Below, piece after piece: positions 12,518 through 25,697 of a stretch of DNA of 64,000 nucleotides. The stretch is from assembly GCF_046105845.1 (NCBI RefSeq), contig NZ_CP151004.1; one strand, written 5' to 3'. A program made the position numbers and the translations under genes. Position 1 is the stretch's first letter. The number at the start of each line of letters is the position of its first letter. This DNA is from Escherichia coli. GTDB taxonomy: Bacteria; Pseudomonadota; Gammaproteobacteria; Enterobacterales; Enterobacteriaceae. The notes beneath the pieces are model-generated. The model made no database searches. It was not told where the DNA came from and saw only the letters and a list, made by a program, of their open reading frames with translations.

Positions 12518-13018
12518 TTAAACGTTCTCCTGCGGCGCAATTTTCGCCAGTTCATCACGCAGTTCTGAACTGAGCGTTGGGTCTTTCAGGATATTTTCCA
12601 GTTCACGGCGAAACGTTGCGTTATCCAGCAGATTGGATTTGAGGTCACGTAATAAATTGCGCATAGCGAGTAATACACGAAGCTGTGGGATATTTTTTGC
12701 TACCTGTTCGGGTTCAAAATCTTTCAGGCTTTTAAATTCAAGCGCGATATTTTGTTCATTACCGCTTCCGCTTAGTGTGTCTTCTACTGTTAAATTAACC
12801 GCAGGCGAAAACTCAGCCATGACACTGTTGAAGTTGTTTTTATTGATATCAATCTTGTCCCGTTCGGACAGCGGACGTTGCTCTTTTCCGTTACTGTAAT
12901 CGCCAACAGCAAGAAGCTTGAGGGGGAGTTCAACTTTCTTTTTAGCATTGCCTGTATGCAGGTCAAGCTTGATATTTACACGAGCGGCGGGAACTTCATT
13001 CTGGAAACTGTCGGCCAT
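12518..13018 (-). CDS. tssB: T6SS contractile sheath small subunit TssB (VipA)
   Basis: TssB-like sequence (ARVNIKLDLHTG...ELPLKLLAVGDY). I place the start at the internal Met (MADSFQ) preceded by GAGGAAAAGG; the ORF track extends to 13045, which remains possible. Confidence 0.85.
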   Translation of the reverse strand: MADSFQNEVPAARVNIKLDLHTGNAKKKVELPLKLLAVGDYSNGKEQRPLSERDKIDINKNNFNSVMAEFSPAVNLTVEDTLSGSGNEQNIALEFKSLKDFEPEQVAKNIPQLRVLLAMRNLLRDLKSNLLDNATFRRELENILKDPTLSSELRDELAKIAPQENV

Positions 13019-13045
13019 ATCCTTTTCCTCATCATCCACTTTCAT

Positions 13046-13657
13046 CAGGAGTGCGAGATAATCACGCGTGTGACTATCCCATAAGGATTATGACTATATA
13101 AAGATAAAAAACAAGAACAAATATAGAGACAGAAATATCATTTATAATTGCTGTGAATAATTATACGTCTATCTCGAAATTATATTATTTGAGAACATCA
13201 TCCCATTTTTAGGCGTTTTAGCTGTTAAGCAGACGGTTAAACCTATACATGTGTATACATGCATGAAAATACTGAAAAACAACAAGATCCACATCACAAA
13301 AATTTATTTTTCAGAATGACGGAATTCATGTTTTTTTCGCAAATTATTCACCATGCAAATATTTAATTTTTTTCATGCTTAATAAAATATGATGTTTACT
13401 CATATGCCAACTATGCTACCTGTTGACGCCACACACCAATACACAAAACAAATGCAACAATCACAAACCATAAAAATAAAATATGATTTAGCTATAGTTA
13501 TCAACAAAATAACATCACCACCATTTATAATTTTACTATTGATAAAAAATAGAAACTACGATAAATAATAAAGCATTACTTACCAATCATTCTTTTAAAT
13601 GATTCTGGAATGCAGTCTCCACTGCATAATTGGGCTGTGTTTTTTAAGGAGCAAGTA
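13046..13657. promoter_or_regulatory. 612-bp strongly AT-rich divergent intergenic region upstream of tssB (minus) and an unknown gene (plus); presumed T6SS operon promoter region
   Basis: Unusually long, AT-rich non-coding stretch between divergent genes. One GATC (13286-13289). A GATAATCAC element at 13066-13074 resembles half a Fur box. No promoter hexamers could be assigned with confidence. Confidence 0.5.
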
Positions 13658-14599
13658 ATGCATACCATTCCTTATTATAGCAATAACACCTCTATGCCTG
13701 TCTGGGTTACTGTTAGCGAAGCAACTGATATTATCAATAAGTATACTAACAGCCATATTAAAGATTGTGACTTATGGCGTTATGCACTTTATGGTCACTT
13801 ACCTCTTTCAATTTATTTCCAGTCACAAATAAAGCTTAGAAAAATTTGCCTGAGCGGCGATGAAATCATGCTGGATAACATCGAAGAAAGCATTATTGAG
13901 AAGATAGCTCAGTTAAGTGATACGTGCATATACAATGGGAAAAATAAAATAATAAAGACAGAAGGTGACTATATTTCCCCAGAGCATCATATTATTGATA
14001 CACCATTAATTGGTCATGAATATATTGTATTACAAAGATTACTTGCTCACTCATTAAAAATACCAAAACCTATTACAGGACAGTATAATTCTCATTATGG
14101 TGTTGTCGTCCGTGAAAATGGAATAATTTATCAGGTCTTCGAATCAACTACACTGGAAAACAGAATAACCCAGCGCCTTCGCCATCTTTCAATCCCCGTT
14201 GCAACATACTTTTACGAATCAACAAAATCCCAGGATCTCAAACAGGCAGGAACCCGGTATTTCCCGGTTTATCATTTTCCTGACGATGCCTGGTTCGTTA
14301 TCAAACGCACTGCTCTTGAGCAATTCATAAATACTTTTCTCCCTCCCACTCATAAAAATACCCCTAAAAATGGAACCCGCATTTCTACACCGCTATCACG
14401 ATTTCTCTGGCTAGCGTGTAAGCACAATCATGATATTAGCGCACTGATGGGGCACCCCTACAAACTCCTCTCCGTGTTCGAAGAATGGGCCCGCTCCGAC
14501 GGTATCACTGAACGACTAAATGGAGATACGCTGAAAACCGCACTGGAACGCGGTTCTCCGGTTTTAGCCTACCGTAACTCCGAATTAATGAAATCCTAA
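13658..14599 (+). CDS. hypothetical protein (313 aa), function unknown
   Basis: Long ORF. ATG at 13658 is preceded by AAGGAG at good spacing; the ORF track begins further upstream at 13610. I do not recognise a family. Transcribed divergently from the T6SS operon. Confidence 0.6.
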   Translation: MHTIPYYSNNTSMPVWVTVSEATDIINKYTNSHIKDCDLWRYALYGHLPLSIYFQSQIKLRKICLSGDEIMLDNIEESIIEKIAQLSDTCIYNGKNKIIKTEGDYISPEHHIIDTPLIGHEYIVLQRLLAHSLKIPKPITGQYNSHYGVVVRENGIIYQVFESTTLENRITQRLRHLSIPVATYFYESTKSQDLKQAGTRYFPVYHFPDDAWFVIKRTALEQFINTFLPPTHKNTPKNGTRISTPLSRFLWLACKHNHDISALMGHPYKLLSVFEEWARSDGITERLNGDTLKTALERGSPVLAYRNSELMKS

Positions 14600-14699
14600 C
14601 TTAGAGTCCAGAAATCCTTACTTAGAGGTCTGCTGCTTTCCTTCGGTAGGTCTGATGATGTTGAATTGACTAGCACATCATCAACTACCGGAGGATAAA

Positions 14700-14885
14700 A
14701 TGACGTCACAACGATTTCTGCGGCTGGCACAGGTTATGGATAAAACCGGACTGAAACGCTCACAGGTCTATGCTTATATGAAAACAGGGGATTTCCCAAA
14801 ATCCGTCAAAATTGGCCCGTCCAGCGTAGCATGGCTGGAATCGGAAATTGACGAATGGATCAATACAAAAATAAATAACCGCTAA
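14700..14885 (+). CDS. AlpA-family phage/island transcriptional regulator
   Basis: 61-aa ORF (MTSQRFLRLAQVMDKTGLKRSQVYAYMKTGDFPKSVKIGPSSVAWLESEIDEWI) matching the small AlpA/MerR-like HTH family. GGAGG SD. Confidence 0.8.
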   Translation: MTSQRFLRLAQVMDKTGLKRSQVYAYMKTGDFPKSVKIGPSSVAWLESEIDEWINTKINNR

Positions 14886-14924
14886 TGTAGTATTCTCATT
14901 ATTAGTTTGTTTGAGGTCATTAAT

Positions 14925-15719
14925 ATGAACGATGATCACGGTATTCTTATGCCTGTCGCACTAAATCAGCTACGGGCATTTGATTTAAATCCACGCCTTA
15001 CCAAAAATCCAGAATATGATGAAATTAAAGAATCGATTCGCAACCGCGGGCTGGATTATCCGCCACAAATAACACAACGTCCGGGAGAATCTTTTTATAT
15101 TATTGCCAATGGAGGTAATACCCGGCTGGCAATACTCAACGAGTTATGGCTGGAAACTCACGATAAAAAATACTGGAATATTGTCTGTCATTTCTGGAAG
15201 TGGCATACAGACTGGAGCATTGAAGAAGGTAATTTACACTGCCTGCTTGGTCATCTCGTAGAAAATGATAAACGCGGTTCACTGACATTTATTGAACGGG
15301 CATTAGGGGTTCAAAGTGCAATAAACCTGTATCAAAGTATCCGGGGAAGCTCACAAAGAGATCTGGTACAAATGCTCTGTCAGGCGGGATATCCAGTATC
15401 CACCACGAAACTAAGTATTATGTCCGCGACTATCACATTTCTTTTACCCTATATTCCGGAAGCACTTTACGGTGGTCTGTCGAGACGTATTATCGATAAA
15501 TTGCTGGCACTTCGTTCCAATACGCTAAAATTCTGGGACAACTTCTGCCAGACGTTGCCTCCCGAAAAGGAACAGCAACTCCCTCTATTTGACGATATTT
15601 TTGCTATGGCCCTGACTCCCTTTAATGAACCGATGACAGGTTTTTCACTGGAGCATATTCAGGATGAGCTGACAGGGATTATCAGCAAGACACTTAATGT
15701 GGACTCTGCCCAGCGATAA
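14925..15719 (+). CDS. ParB/sulfiredoxin-like N-terminal domain protein (putative)
   Basis: N-terminal region (LNQLRAFDLNPRLTKNPEYDEIKESIRNRGLDYPPQI...IIANGGNTRLAIL) resembles the ParB N-terminal domain pattern. Start taken at ATG 14925 (GAGG 8 nt upstream); the track ORF starts at 14907. Confidence 0.5.
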   Translation: MNDDHGILMPVALNQLRAFDLNPRLTKNPEYDEIKESIRNRGLDYPPQITQRPGESFYIIANGGNTRLAILNELWLETHDKKYWNIVCHFWKWHTDWSIEEGNLHCLLGHLVENDKRGSLTFIERALGVQSAINLYQSIRGSSQRDLVQMLCQAGYPVSTTKLSIMSATITFLLPYIPEALYGGLSRRIIDKLLALRSNTLKFWDNFCQTLPPEKEQQLPLFDDIFAMALTPFNEPMTGFSLEHIQDELTGIISKTLNVDSAQR

Positions 15720-15916
15720 CGGGATGGCCAGATTTGCGCCGGTGATATATTCAATGCCTCCGCAATCAACCGCTCACCTTTCGGCCAGTGGCTCCTGAGT
15801 GCATTTGCCAGCGTACCGGAGGCCAGCCCGGCTTTGCGGGAAACCGCTGCCAGCGACGTTCCCTGTTTTTTCAGTGCCGCGATAATATCTGCGGGGTGCC
15901 AGTCCTGCTGCATCAT
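15659..15916 (-). CDS. Ner/Nlp-family small DNA-binding protein
   Basis: Sequence from the internal Met (MMQQDWHPADIIAALKKQGTSLAAVSRKAGLASGTLANALRSHWPKGERLIAEALNISPAQIWPSRY) resembles Ner/Nlp (SfsB-like) regulators. ATGA overlap with the integrase stop; GGGAGGG SD. Confidence 0.7.
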   Translation of the reverse strand: MMQQDWHPADIIAALKKQGTSLAAVSRKAGLASGTLANALRSHWPKGERLIAEALNISPAQIWPSRYRWAESTLSVLLIIPVSSS

Positions 15917-17137
15917 ACTGCCCTCCCACAAACCAGCCGTTCGGACGGGATACCACATACACGCTGGCTCCACCACGCCATCACGTCGGTTCTCTGCTCA
16001 AGATAGGTCGAGCGGTTATAAGCGGCGCGCGTCTGATTAGTATCCGCATGAGCCAGTACAGCTTCTATCACATCAGGGGAAAATCCGGCCTCATTCAGCG
16101 TGGTGCTACCCAGCGCCCGGAAACCATGTGACACCAGCTCCCCGCAATACCCCATACGCCGTAGTGCCTTATTGACCGTTTCGCTATTCATTGGTTGCGA
16201 GGGCTTAACCCGACCCGGAAACAGGAACGGCGAGTGTCCACTTATCGGTTTAAGTTGCTCCAGTATCCACAGCATTTCATCAGTCAGGGGCACCAGATGC
16301 TCACGGCGTTTTTTCATACGCTCAGCCGGAATAGTCCATAGCTTTTTCTCCGTATCAATCTCACGCCACATGGTGCCTGACGCTTCTCCGGGGCGCACCA
16401 GCGTCAGCAACTGCCACTTAATCAGATAACGAGTCATCAGCGATAGATTGGTGGTTTCAATCCGCTGTACCAGCTCCGGCAGGCGTTCCGGGCGGATAGA
16501 CGCCATATGCTGTTTTTTCGGCTTCTCAAAGACCTTACCGATGGTCGAGGCTGGATTCGCATCAAGCAGGCCGGAATTGACAGCAAATACCATCACTTCG
16601 TTGATACGCTGGGTTAGACGACGCAGGGTTTCCAGCGCACCTCGTGCCCGGACCGGCTCAAGGGCGGCAATCAGAGTATGTGCTTTCAATTCAGCTACCG
16701 GCATCTGTCCGATTGACGGAAGAACATCCCGTTCCATCGAACGCCAGATATCATCTGCATGCACTTCTGAAATGCCACTGGTCTTTTTAATAGCAAACCA
16801 TCTTGTCGCCACATTGATAAACAGGCTGTCGATTGCTTTCTTTTCCTGTTCTGCGGCTTCCTGCTCCAGCTTTTTCGGATCTACACCCTGAGCCAGCAGA
16901 CCAAGATATTCATCATGTACTGCGGGCAGCAGCAAGAGTTACAGCAGGATAATAACCCAGCGTGATATTGGTACGGGCAGTGGAGTTTGGACGCTGGTAA
17001 CGAAAACGCCAGATTTTCTTCCCGGAAGTACGAACAGAAAGCGTCAGACCATGCCCGTCAGGCAGGTCGTAATCTTTATCGGCGGGTTTTGCTTTTTGTA
17101 CTGCGGCAGCAGTCAGCAGGCGGCGGGTAATGGTCAT
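15913..17137 (-). pseudogene. int: P4-type tyrosine integrase interrupted by a frameshift (N-terminal 74-aa ORF plus 340-aa C-terminal ORF in another frame)
   Basis: ORF 16913-17137 encodes a typical P4-integrase N-terminus (AVQKAKPADKDYDLPDGHGLTL...GYYPAVTLAAAR). ORF 15913-16935 encodes the rest, including the catalytic region (HGFRALGSTTL...LAHADTNQT...Y). The frames overlap at 16913-16935 next to a GGG run (16924-16926). Could also be a homopolymer sequencing error. Confidence 0.75.
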
Positions 17138-17398: not shown

Positions 17399-17475
17399 TG
17401 GCGGAACGGACGGGACTCGAACCCGCGACCCCCTGCGTGACAGGCAGGTATTCTAACCGACTGAACTACCGCTCC
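17399..17475 (-). tRNA. aspV: tRNA-Asp (GUC)
   Basis: Reverse complement matches E. coli tRNA-Asp (GGAGCGGTAGTTCAGTCGGTTAGAATACCTGCCTGTCACGCAGGGGGTCGCGGGTTCGAGTCCCGTCCGTTCCGCCA). Position next to dnaQ identifies it as aspV. Confidence 0.97.
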
Positions 17476-25620: not shown

Positions 25621-25697
25621 TGGCGGAACGGACGGGACTCGAACCCGCGACCCCCTGCGTGACAGGCAGGTATTCTAACCGACTGAACTACCGCTCC
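25621..25697 (-). tRNA. aspU: tRNA-Asp (GUC), distal tRNA of rrnH
   Basis: Identical in sequence to the aspV copy. Lies 3' of the 5S rRNA. Confidence 0.97.

What the first reader, a model, noticed from the sequence alone, without database searches (positions are those of the whole stretch)
13046..14599. Unknown gene divergently transcribed from tssB across a 612-bp AT-rich region: candidate island-encoded regulator or accessory factor
The T6SS structural operon and a 313-aa protein of unknown family face away from each other across an unusually long, AT-rich intergenic region. Such a region is a plausible target for nucleoid-protein silencing and regulator binding. I cannot assign the unknown protein to any family. 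Its position makes it a candidate regulator or accessory factor for this cluster.
Basis: inference. Interest (0 to 1): 0.5.

Follow-up and report, generated by a model that had tools for sequence, protein, structure and literature searches.

The report
Leftover mobile-element regulator gene beside T6SS
The unknown 313-aa gene next to the type VI secretion operon is real, but it is the lead gene of the control module of a decayed integrative conjugative element at tRNA-Asp, so its neighbourhood with the secretion system most likely reflects a shared insertion hot spot rather than shared function.

Summary
An intact 313-aa ORF (13658-14599, +) faces tssB (-) across a 612-639 bp spacer of 30% GC.

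The gene (X) has no match in Pfam, NCBIfam, PHROGs, PADLOC or PDB sequences. It does belong to a family of several hundred "hypothetical" proteins in Enterobacterales, with distant relatives in Burkholderia.

In 40 of 50 species-representative loci, an AlpA-family gene follows X within 400 bp on the same strand. After it usually come ParB (ICE PFGI-1 class), DUF2857, TraR, AcaB, DUF3158 and SSB. The upstream neighbour varies: tssB, another T6SS type, yafT, hha, fimbriae or ner/int.

X therefore occupies the slot that BisR holds in ICEclc, where BisR activates the alpA-bisDC operon. X is not homologous to BisR. One distant X relative does carry a BisR-type C-terminal domain.

In this window the element is a remnant. 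parB is cut at codon ~260, DUF2857 is absent, the integrase is frameshifted, and a conserved X-alpA hairpin is destroyed.

X is probably a DNA-binding ICE regulator. A role in T6SS control is not supported but is not excluded.

The parts
12518..13018 (-). tssB (T6SS sheath small subunit). The longest ORF extends to 13045. The likely start is 13018.
   Evidence: TIGR03358 at 163.5 bits. RefSeq annotates 166-aa TssB in near-identical clusters.
13019..13657 (.). AT-rich divergent spacer (GC 0.30). Only 13019-13042 (the tssB RBS region) is shared with the ~1340 E. coli genomes that carry the same T6SS.
   Evidence: The spacer was found in only 2 of 5426 complete E. coli genomes.
13539..13657 (+). 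X-proximal ~120 bp, still alignable (78%) with the Salmonella counterpart. Presumed promoter/5' UTR of X.
   Evidence: blastn of the window against L023. A sigma-70-like match lies further upstream at 13460-13487, outside this stretch (weak).
13658..14599 (+). Gene X: 313-aa member of an uncharacterised family that leads ICE regulatory modules. Predicted three domains: N-terminal winged-helix-like, central alpha/beta, C-terminal helical.
14590..14632 (+). Degenerate remains of the inverted repeat that relatives carry between X and alpA. The left arm is rewritten, so no hairpin forms here.
   Evidence: Folding energy is -10.4 kcal/mol (z +0.4) here, against -21 to -26 (z -3 to -7.6) in relatives.
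14700..14885 (+). alpA-family gene (61 aa): excisionase/transcription regulator type.
   Evidence: phrog_2790, E 4.5e-17. 98% identical to the Salmonella L023 AlpA.
14907..15719 (+). Truncated parB (BisD-like, ICE PFGI-1 class). Only residues 1-260 of ~480 are present.
   Evidence: TIGR03764 at 271.6 bits, cutoff 143.75. tblastn with the full-length L023 ParB.
15662..15916 (-). ner/sfsB-like small HTH gene.
   Evidence: NF007670 partial hit. 99% identical to the 85-aa gene in L019.
15913..17137 (-). P4-type tyrosine integrase, frameshifted near 16916-16920 (pseudogene).
   Evidence: Two ORFs. NF007246 hit. The intact 408-aa homologue aligns in two frames.
17399..17475 (-). tRNA-Asp (aspV position, next to dnaQ): the integration site.
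   Evidence: ARAGORN. The dnaQ-rnhA context is as in E. coli.

Best explanation
X is the first gene of the activation/regulatory module of a PFGI-1/ICEclc-class integrative conjugative element that inserted at tRNA-Asp.

In intact relatives the order is X, a hairpin-forming inverted repeat, alpA, then parB (BisD-like), DUF2857 (BisC-like), traR, acaB, DUF3158 and ssb. X therefore sits where bisR sits in ICEclc.

Proposed mechanism, inferred by position and fold rather than shown: X is a DNA-binding protein, made from its own promoter as a single-gene transcript, that switches on the alpA promoter and so starts ICE activation.

In this genome everything between parB codon ~260 and ner has been deleted, the integrase is frameshifted and the X-alpA hairpin is lost. 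X is thus an intact but probably orphaned remnant.

It lies beside tssB because the ICE landed at the same tRNA-Asp hot spot that already held the T6SS island.
For: Shown:
- Family context. alpA lies within 400 bp downstream on the same strand in 40/50 species-representative loci, and 2.4-5.7 kb downstream (apparent insertions) in 3 more. DUF2857/TraR or ParB-DUF2857-TraR-AcaB follow (individual loci).
- The upstream neighbour varies: tssB, a second T6SS type plus yafT, hha, fimbriae, ner/int, Tdi1 (the same calls).
- ParB is TIGR03764 'ICE_PFGI_1_parB'.
- ICEclc-type loci have the same downstream string: alpA-parA-shi-parB-DUF2857...AcaB-DUF3158-SSB. In Bordetella petrii a 250-aa no-Pfam BisR-like gene sits in the X position.
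- BisR is documented as the activator of PalpA and as a single-gene transcript (PMC7423338).
- P0201, a distant X-family member, carries a BisR-type C-terminal domain (BLASTP 2e-9, HMM 2e-13).
- Purifying selection acts on X.
- Decay in the window: parB has residues 1-260 only, there is no DUF2857, and int is frameshifted. The hairpin is lost, and the MEW strain copy has a nonsense codon.
- X remnants next to int(-)/tRNA-Asp(-) occur in other genera.

Inferred: DNA binding, from the winged-helix-like N-terminus; the target promoter.
Against: - X is not detectably homologous to BisR. hhalign gives probability <1%. The top 50 Foldseek hits of the two models do not overlap.
- No att (tRNA-Asp 3' end) repeat was found beside X to mark the ICE end.
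- Within the closest (ParB-type, >=50% identity) relatives, T6SS genes are frequent neighbours. tssB abuts X in E. coli and Salmonella relatives (L019, L023). A second T6SS type does so in L075, L026, L028 and L066. L025 keeps a tssB fragment. A link to T6SS is therefore not formally excluded.
- In HAI2-like elements X lies at the int-proximal end, unlike ICEclc.
Confidence: 0.6

Rival explanations
1. X is, or has become, a regulator of the adjacent T6SS operon. It would bind in the AT-rich spacer and control the tssB promoter.
For: - The native upstream region of this T6SS type is replaced right up to -24 of tssB, so the operon must use a promoter in the novel spacer.
- The tssB-spacer-X junction is kept in E. 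coli lineages and in Salmonella, where X is 77% identical. A tssB fragment still sits beside X in Morganella.
- X stays intact and under purifying selection while the neighbouring ICE genes decay.
Against: - Only 5/50 loci have any T6SS gene within 10 kb, and these involve two T6SS types met at different ends.
- alpA is the invariant partner.
- The X copy is broken by a nonsense codon in E. coli MEW, which keeps the same T6SS.
- The spacer is not alignable with Salmonella except next to X.
- There are no conserved repeats or Fur/Dam motifs in the spacer.
Confidence: 0.1
2. X belongs to the ICE module but is not a transcription factor. It could be an accessory factor for excision or recombination directionality acting with AlpA/Int, or a maintenance or exclusion function expressed from the ICE end.
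For: - The N-terminal fold matches are to excisionases/RDFs (AlpA 8c3t, RdfS 8dgl, Xis 4j2n) as much as to MerR regulators.
- X often lies near int: int-ner-X in HAI2-like elements, and X...int(-) in remnants.
- The central domain has no structural match.
Against: - AlpA already supplies the small excisionase-like protein.
- X's position, its single-gene layout with a following hairpin, and the BisR-type C-terminal domain in one member parallel a documented activator.
Confidence: 0.2
3. In this particular genome the gene is functionally inert: an expressed or silent relic with no remaining target. Its intactness reflects only the short time since the ICE decayed.
For: - Its presumed target operon is truncated (parB' only, no DUF2857), int is a pseudogene and the hairpin is lost.
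- dN/dS is higher in the recent E. coli comparison than in the old one: 0.19 against 0.06.
- A sister strain has a nonsense mutation.
- The locus is rare: 2 of 5426 complete E. coli genomes.
Against: - The ORF is full length, with a good RBS, in lineages that are ~5% diverged at the DNA level and share the same deletion (L019 and the window). It has therefore outlived the deletion for some time.
- alpA is also intact.
Confidence: 0.35

Closest known systems
BisR of ICEclc (Pseudomonas; Carraro et al. 2020, PMC7423338)
   Same: Both are single genes placed immediately upstream of, and co-oriented with, alpA-(parA-shi)-parB/bisD-DUF2857/bisC. Both are 250-310 aa with no Pfam domain. Both families are annotated 'hypothetical'. 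One X-family member (P0201) has a BisR-type C-terminal domain.
   Different: No detectable sequence homology. The predicted architecture differs: BisR has a ~50-residue coiled-coil helix, whereas X has a central alpha/beta domain. Their Foldseek neighbourhoods do not overlap. Host range is Enterobacterales rather than Pseudomonas/Burkholderiales. Function is untested.
AlpA / Xis / MerR-type winged-helix DNA-binding domains (HTH_17-like)
SPI-20 of Salmonella enterica subsp. arizonae (Blondel et al. 2009, PMC2907695)
   Same: A PAI-metV-type T6SS lies beside aspV. Its tssB is followed, after ~600 bp, by two ORFs with no conserved domains (SARI_02735, SARI_02736) and then by tRNA-Asp. The authors regarded these ORFs as unrelated to T6SS function.
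   Different: I could not fetch those two sequences, so homology of SARI_02735/6 to X or int is a lead, not a result.
PAI-metV T6SS of E. coli (CFT073/Nissle type)
   Same: tssB-tssC-tssK-tssL-ompA-hcp-clpV are 96-99% identical in tssBC. This cluster also has a ~635-bp AT-rich spacer before a tRNA gene.
   Different: It sits at tRNA-Met rather than tRNA-Asp. Its spacer is unrelated beyond 24 bp upstream of tssB, and no X gene is present.

Membership tests
BisR family (ICEclc bistability regulator) | Sequence or profile homology to BisR | tested here: not met
   The BisR-like protein from the B. petrii ICEclc-type locus (L013) and a 31-sequence family alignment were compared with the X alignments. 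hhalign gives probability 0.2-0.3%. The BisR C-terminal HMM hits only the distant member P0201.
BisR family (ICEclc bistability regulator) | Position directly upstream of, and co-oriented with, alpA-...-parB(bisD)-DUF2857(bisC) | tested here: met
   alpA within 400 bp in 40/50 loci, with DUF2857 and/or ParB following. In the window alpA and a parB fragment follow, but DUF2857 is deleted.
BisR family (ICEclc bistability regulator) | Activates the alpA promoter and triggers ICE transfer competence | not testable with these tools
   Needs reporter and transfer assays. Shown only for BisR (PMC7423338).
BisR family (ICEclc bistability regulator) | Single-gene transcript separated from alpA | tested here: inconclusive
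   Relatives have a strong hairpin between X and alpA (dG -21 to -26), but without a canonical U-tract on the + strand. The hairpin is absent in the window.
MerR/excisionase-type winged helix (HTH_17, Phage_AlpA) | Match to the Pfam family models | tested here: not met
   No Pfam hit for X or for any of 44 family members.
MerR/excisionase-type winged helix (HTH_17, Phage_AlpA) | Fold similarity of the N-terminal domain | tested here: inconclusive
T6SS accessory or regulatory gene | Conserved co-occurrence with T6SS clusters across genomes | tested here: not met
   5/50 loci have any T6SS gene within 10 kb, of two types and at different ends. About 1340 E. coli genomes with the same T6SS lack X.
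T6SS accessory or regulatory gene | Homology to a known T6SS component or regulator | tested here: not met
   No NCBIfam, Pfam or PADLOC hit.
PFGI-1/ICEclc-class ICE (the element X belongs to) | ParB of TIGR03764 class with AlpA, DUF2857, AcaB, DUF3158 and SSB in series | tested here: met
   Window: ParB 271.6 bits (cutoff 143.75) and AlpA. The full series is present in relatives L002, L025, L075 and L076 and in Pseudomonas/Bordetella/Burkholderia ICEclc-type loci.
PFGI-1/ICEclc-class ICE (the element X belongs to) | Tyrosine integrase next to a tRNA gene, with flanking att repeats | tested here: inconclusive
   A P4-type integrase (frameshifted) lies next to tRNA-Asp. No second copy of the tRNA 3' end was found near X.

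The most novel reading that the evidence does not exclude
An ICE master-switch regulator has been domesticated. After the ICE decayed, X was kept because it now drives or gates the T6SS operon, whose native upstream region has been replaced up to 24 bp before tssB. This would explain why the tssB-spacer-X junction persists in E. coli, in Salmonella and, as a fragment, in Morganella.
Probability: 0.1. Interest if true: 0.7.

Novelty: new variant of a known kind. Interest (0 to 1): 0.35.

Why it matters
For annotating T6SS islands, the result removes a tempting but probably false candidate regulator. It also shows that this aspV island is a composite of a T6SS cluster and an ICE stump.

For mobile-element biology, it identifies an uncharacterised protein family of several hundred members. 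The family is found in Salmonella, Klebsiella, Citrobacter, Dickeya, Pectobacterium and Yersinia, with distant relatives in Burkholderia. It sits at the entry point of the alpA-ParB/DUF2857 activation cascade, at the place where BisR acts in ICEclc, but is unrelated in sequence.

If it is the functional counterpart of BisR, it would be the switch that decides when these enterobacterial ICEs transfer. Many of them carry virulence or resistance cargo. The neighbouring co-varying inverted repeat gives a concrete site to test.

Tried and rejected
- Family libraries for X (Pfam, NCBIfam, PHROGs, PADLOC, PDB sequences): nothing.
- Homology of X to BisR by BLASTP, hhalign, domain HMMs and comparison of Foldseek neighbourhoods: not supported, except for the C-terminal domain of P0201.
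- Search for an att repeat (tRNA-Asp 3' end) in the spacer and in the related loci: none beside X.
- Fur box, GATC, Rfam, promoter/terminator consensus and repeats in the spacer: nothing above chance.
- Alignment of the spacer with the spacer of the metV-located T6SS and with Salmonella: unalignable except at the two gene-proximal ends.
- Asking whether the box sequence of the X-alpA inverted repeat tracks residues in the X or AlpA recognition helices: both helices are nearly invariant across box types, so no assignment was possible.
- Phage origin: no X homologue in 50,697 phage records.
- The first related-loci run, with the broad alignment, failed for lack of conserved stretches and was repeated with the core family.

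Full report
WHAT IS THERE

The window around the finding reads, left to right, as follows.
- tssK, tssC and tssB on the minus strand. tssB is confirmed by TIGR03358 at 163.5 bits.
- An AT-rich gap.
- An ORF on the plus strand at 13610/13658-14599.
- A 61-aa AlpA-family gene at 14700-14885 (phrog_2790, E 4.5e-17).
- A 270-aa ParB of the 'ICE PFGI-1' class at 14907-15719 (TIGR03764, 271.6 bits against a cutoff of 143.75).
- A ner/sfsB-like gene, then a P4-type integrase split into two ORFs, both on the minus strand.
- tRNA-Asp at 17399-17475, then dnaQ.

The core genes are 99% identical to E. coli.

The 313-aa reading (ATG 13658) is the right one. It has AAGGAG 6 nt upstream, and homologues start at the equivalent MYTIP/MHTIP.

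The spacer is 612 bp to the longest tssB ORF. It is 639 bp to the start annotated in RefSeq for near-identical tssB genes (13018). Its GC content is 0.30, against 0.52 for the window.

The gene is real. dN/dS is 0.19 against an E. coli relative and 0.06 against a Salmonella relative.

WHAT THE PROTEIN IS

X matches nothing in Pfam, NCBIfam, PHROGs, PADLOC or PDB sequences.

It is nonetheless far from unique.
- The word-indexed search gave 396 homologues. All are 'hypothetical', about 300-308 aa, and come from Salmonella, Citrobacter, Klebsiella, Dickeya, Pectobacterium, Yersinia, Serratia and other Enterobacterales.
- The exhaustive search gave 95 clusters at 50% identity.
- Members at 20-29% identity include Burkholderia proteins.

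An AlphaFold model built on 44 sequences is confident: pLDDT 88.2, pTM 0.71. It shows three parts.
- An N-terminal beta-alpha-alpha-beta-beta unit (residues 16-63).
- A central alpha/beta region.
- After a low-confidence linker, a C-terminal helical bundle (244-311).

WHERE THE FAMILY LIVES

Genomic context is the strongest evidence. A scan of one genome per species returned 50 loci.
- In 40 of them an AlpA gene follows X within 400 bp on the same strand.
- In three more it follows after a 2.4-5.7 kb interruption.
- One further locus has DUF2857-TraR but no alpA 2.2 kb downstream. Most of the other six are X fragments, pseudogenes or contig ends.

Two module types occur.
- X-alpA-ParB-DUF2857-TraR-AcaB-DUF3158-SSB.
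- X-alpA-DUF2857-TraR. This second type, in Dickeya and Pectobacterium, is preceded by tRNA-Asn, int, two HTH genes and ner, and is followed by VirB-type transfer genes.

Individual look-ups agree.

What lies upstream of X varies:
- tssB;
- the hcp end of a different T6SS, plus yafT;
- hha;
- a fimbrial operon;
- ner/int;
- T6SS immunity-like genes.

X is absent from 50,697 phage records. It is present on only 14 large plasmids.

LINK TO ICEclc

The string alpA-(parA-shi)-parB-DUF2857...AcaB-DUF3158-SSB-TopB is the regulatory core of ICEclc-type elements in Pseudomonas, Bordetella and Burkholderia. In ICEclc, BisR is a 251-aa protein without Pfam domains. It is encoded by a single-gene transcript directly upstream of alpA. 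It activates PalpA and so starts production of BisD (ParB-like) and BisC (DUF2857), which switch on transfer competence (PMC7423338; PMC12409273). X occupies exactly that slot.

I recovered a BisR-like gene (250 aa) from a Bordetella petrii locus and built a 31-member family alignment.
- X and BisR are not detectably homologous: hhalign probability is below 1%.
- The BisR model has a long coiled-coil helix that X lacks.
- The top Foldseek neighbours of the two models do not overlap.
- One bridge exists. The distant X-family member P0201 has X-type N-terminal and central parts but a BisR-type C-terminal domain (BLASTP 2e-9; HMM 2e-13).

I therefore call X a positional and probably functional analogue of BisR, not a member of its family.

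STATE OF THE ELEMENT IN THIS WINDOW

Compared with a Salmonella relative that has X-alpA-ParB(479 aa)-DUF2857-TraR (L023), the window differs as follows.
- It keeps only ParB residues 1-260 and has no DUF2857.
- The integrase aligns to an intact 408-aa homologue in two frames, with a frameshift near 16916-16920.
- X is 77% identical to the Salmonella protein, whereas AlpA is 98% and the ParB fragment 93%.

The locus is rare. Only 2 of 5426 complete E. coli genomes carry it. In one of them (strain MEW) X has a nonsense codon at position 162.

X-like remnants in the same arrangement, X(+)...int(-) tRNA-Asp(-), occur in Intestinirhabdus, Superficieibacter and Pectobacterium. This fits an element whose two ends survive internal deletion. 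I did not find a second copy of the tRNA-Asp 3' end that would mark the X-side boundary.

THE SPACER AND THE T6SS

About 1340 complete E. coli genomes carry the same T6SS, at 96-99% identity in tssBC. In all listed cases the similarity stops at window position 13042, which is 24 bp upstream of the tssB start. In the two I inspected (SJ7 and a Nissle derivative) the cluster sits next to the tRNA-Met genes and mltA, behind its own unrelated 635-bp spacer of 31% GC. This is the PAI-metV type of T6SS. A relative of it at aspV has been described as SPI-20 in Salmonella arizonae, with two domain-less ORFs between tssB and aspV (PMC2907695).

Against the Salmonella locus L023, only the tssB side (up to 13042) and the last ~120 bp before X (from 13539) are alignable.

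Nothing above chance was found in the spacer:
- one 14/19 Fur-like site;
- one GATC;
- no Rfam match;
- no notable repeats;
- fewer promoter-like sites than in shuffled sequence.

The T6SS operon here must therefore use a promoter in sequence that most E. coli with this T6SS do not have. Nothing ties X to that promoter.

T6SS genes lie within 10 kb of X in 5 of the 50 species loci. They are commoner among the closest ParB-type relatives. They are, however, of two different T6SS types and are joined at different ends. This is what a shared aspV hot spot predicts. A Morganella element even carries a tssB fragment between ner and X, a relic of such a junction.

A CIS ELEMENT SEEN ON THE WAY

Between the X stop and alpA, 40 of 44 distinct relatives carry an 11-16-nt inverted repeat. 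It is at least 9/11 complementary; shuffled sequences average 7.2 and never exceed 9. It ends 68-86 nt before the alpA ATG.

The arms differ between lineages but remain complementary. Examples are CCTAAGTAAGG/CCTTACTTAGG, CCGCGTTGCGG/CCGCAACGCGG, CCGTATTAAGG/CCGTAATACGG, and CCGAATTCGG twice in a 22%-identical relative. Predicted RNA hairpins have -21 to -26 kcal/mol and z -3 to -7.6.

The recognition helices of both AlpA and X are almost invariant across arm types. This favours a structural hairpin, for example the terminator of a monocistronic X, over a sequence-specific operator. I could not decide between the two.

In the window and in strain MEW the left arm and the 3' tail of X are rewritten, and the hairpin is gone (-10.4 kcal/mol, z +0.4). 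This is another sign of decay.

VERDICT

The gene is an ICE-module gene, most likely a DNA-binding activator at the head of the alpA cascade, and it survives here as a stump beside a T6SS island. That it regulates the T6SS is possible but unsupported (about 0.1).

The protein family is uncharacterised and is a non-homologous occupant of the BisR position. This makes it a new variant of a known kind of ICE regulator. As a finding in this window it is of modest interest.

Noticed in passing
window 14590-14632; relatives L002-L076 (X-alpA intergenic): A conserved inverted repeat with arms that co-vary between lineages lies between X and alpA in 40/44 distinct relatives (hairpin dG -21 to -26). 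It is destroyed in the window and in E. coli MEW. It could be the X terminator or an operator.
   Followed up: partly
window 13019-13042 / 13043: Similarity to the ~1340 E. coli genomes carrying the same T6SS ends 24 bp upstream of tssB. In the two inspected, the cluster is at tRNA-Met/mltA (PAI-metV type). Here it is at tRNA-Asp with an unrelated spacer found in only 2 of 5426 complete genomes.
   Followed up: partly
window 15913-17137 and 14907-15719: The integrase is frameshifted near 16916-16920. parB retains only residues 1-260 of ~480 and runs into the 3' end of the convergent ner gene. A relative (L019) has the same deletion but an intact integrase.
   Followed up: yes
L025 9299-9541 (Morganella morganii): A tssB fragment (residues 3-83, 68% identical) sits between ner and X inside an otherwise complete X-alpA-parB-DUF2857-traR-acaB module. 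It is a relic of a T6SS/ICE junction carried along.
   Followed up: partly
protein P0201 (metagenomic, 307 aa): A hybrid protein: X-type N-terminal and central domains joined to a BisR-type C-terminal domain (HMM E 2e-13). Its genomic context was not retrieved.
   Followed up: partly
L001 8614-9555 (E. coli MEW): The otherwise ~98% identical copy of X carries a GAA->TAA nonsense codon at position 162 and is annotated as a 161-aa hypothetical protein.
   Followed up: yes
window 13658-15704 vs L023: Divergence within one module is uneven. X is 77% identical to the Salmonella protein, while AlpA is 98% and the ParB N-terminal part 93%. This could reflect recombination or faster evolution of X.
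   Followed up: partly
BisR family proteins P0331-P0450; AFDB hits of model m42d73692f98e: Many BisR-family proteins are labelled 'Receptor protein-tyrosine kinase', 'Protein kinase' or 'ATP-binding protein' in public databases. No such domain was detected by Pfam, so these are probably propagated misannotations.
   Followed up: no
window 25621-25645 (-): A second exact copy of the tRNA-Asp 3' end lies next to a ~6 kb stretch without long ORFs. It is probably another tRNA-Asp gene at the end of an rRNA operon, not an att repeat.
   Followed up: no
L026 and L028 (Citrobacter sp. wls619), L075 (S. salamae), L066: In these genomes X follows the hcp end of a different T6SS type (tssA-tssM-hcp; in L075 also an AcrVA2-like gene and yafT). 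Citrobacter sp. wls619 has two such loci.
   Followed up: partly
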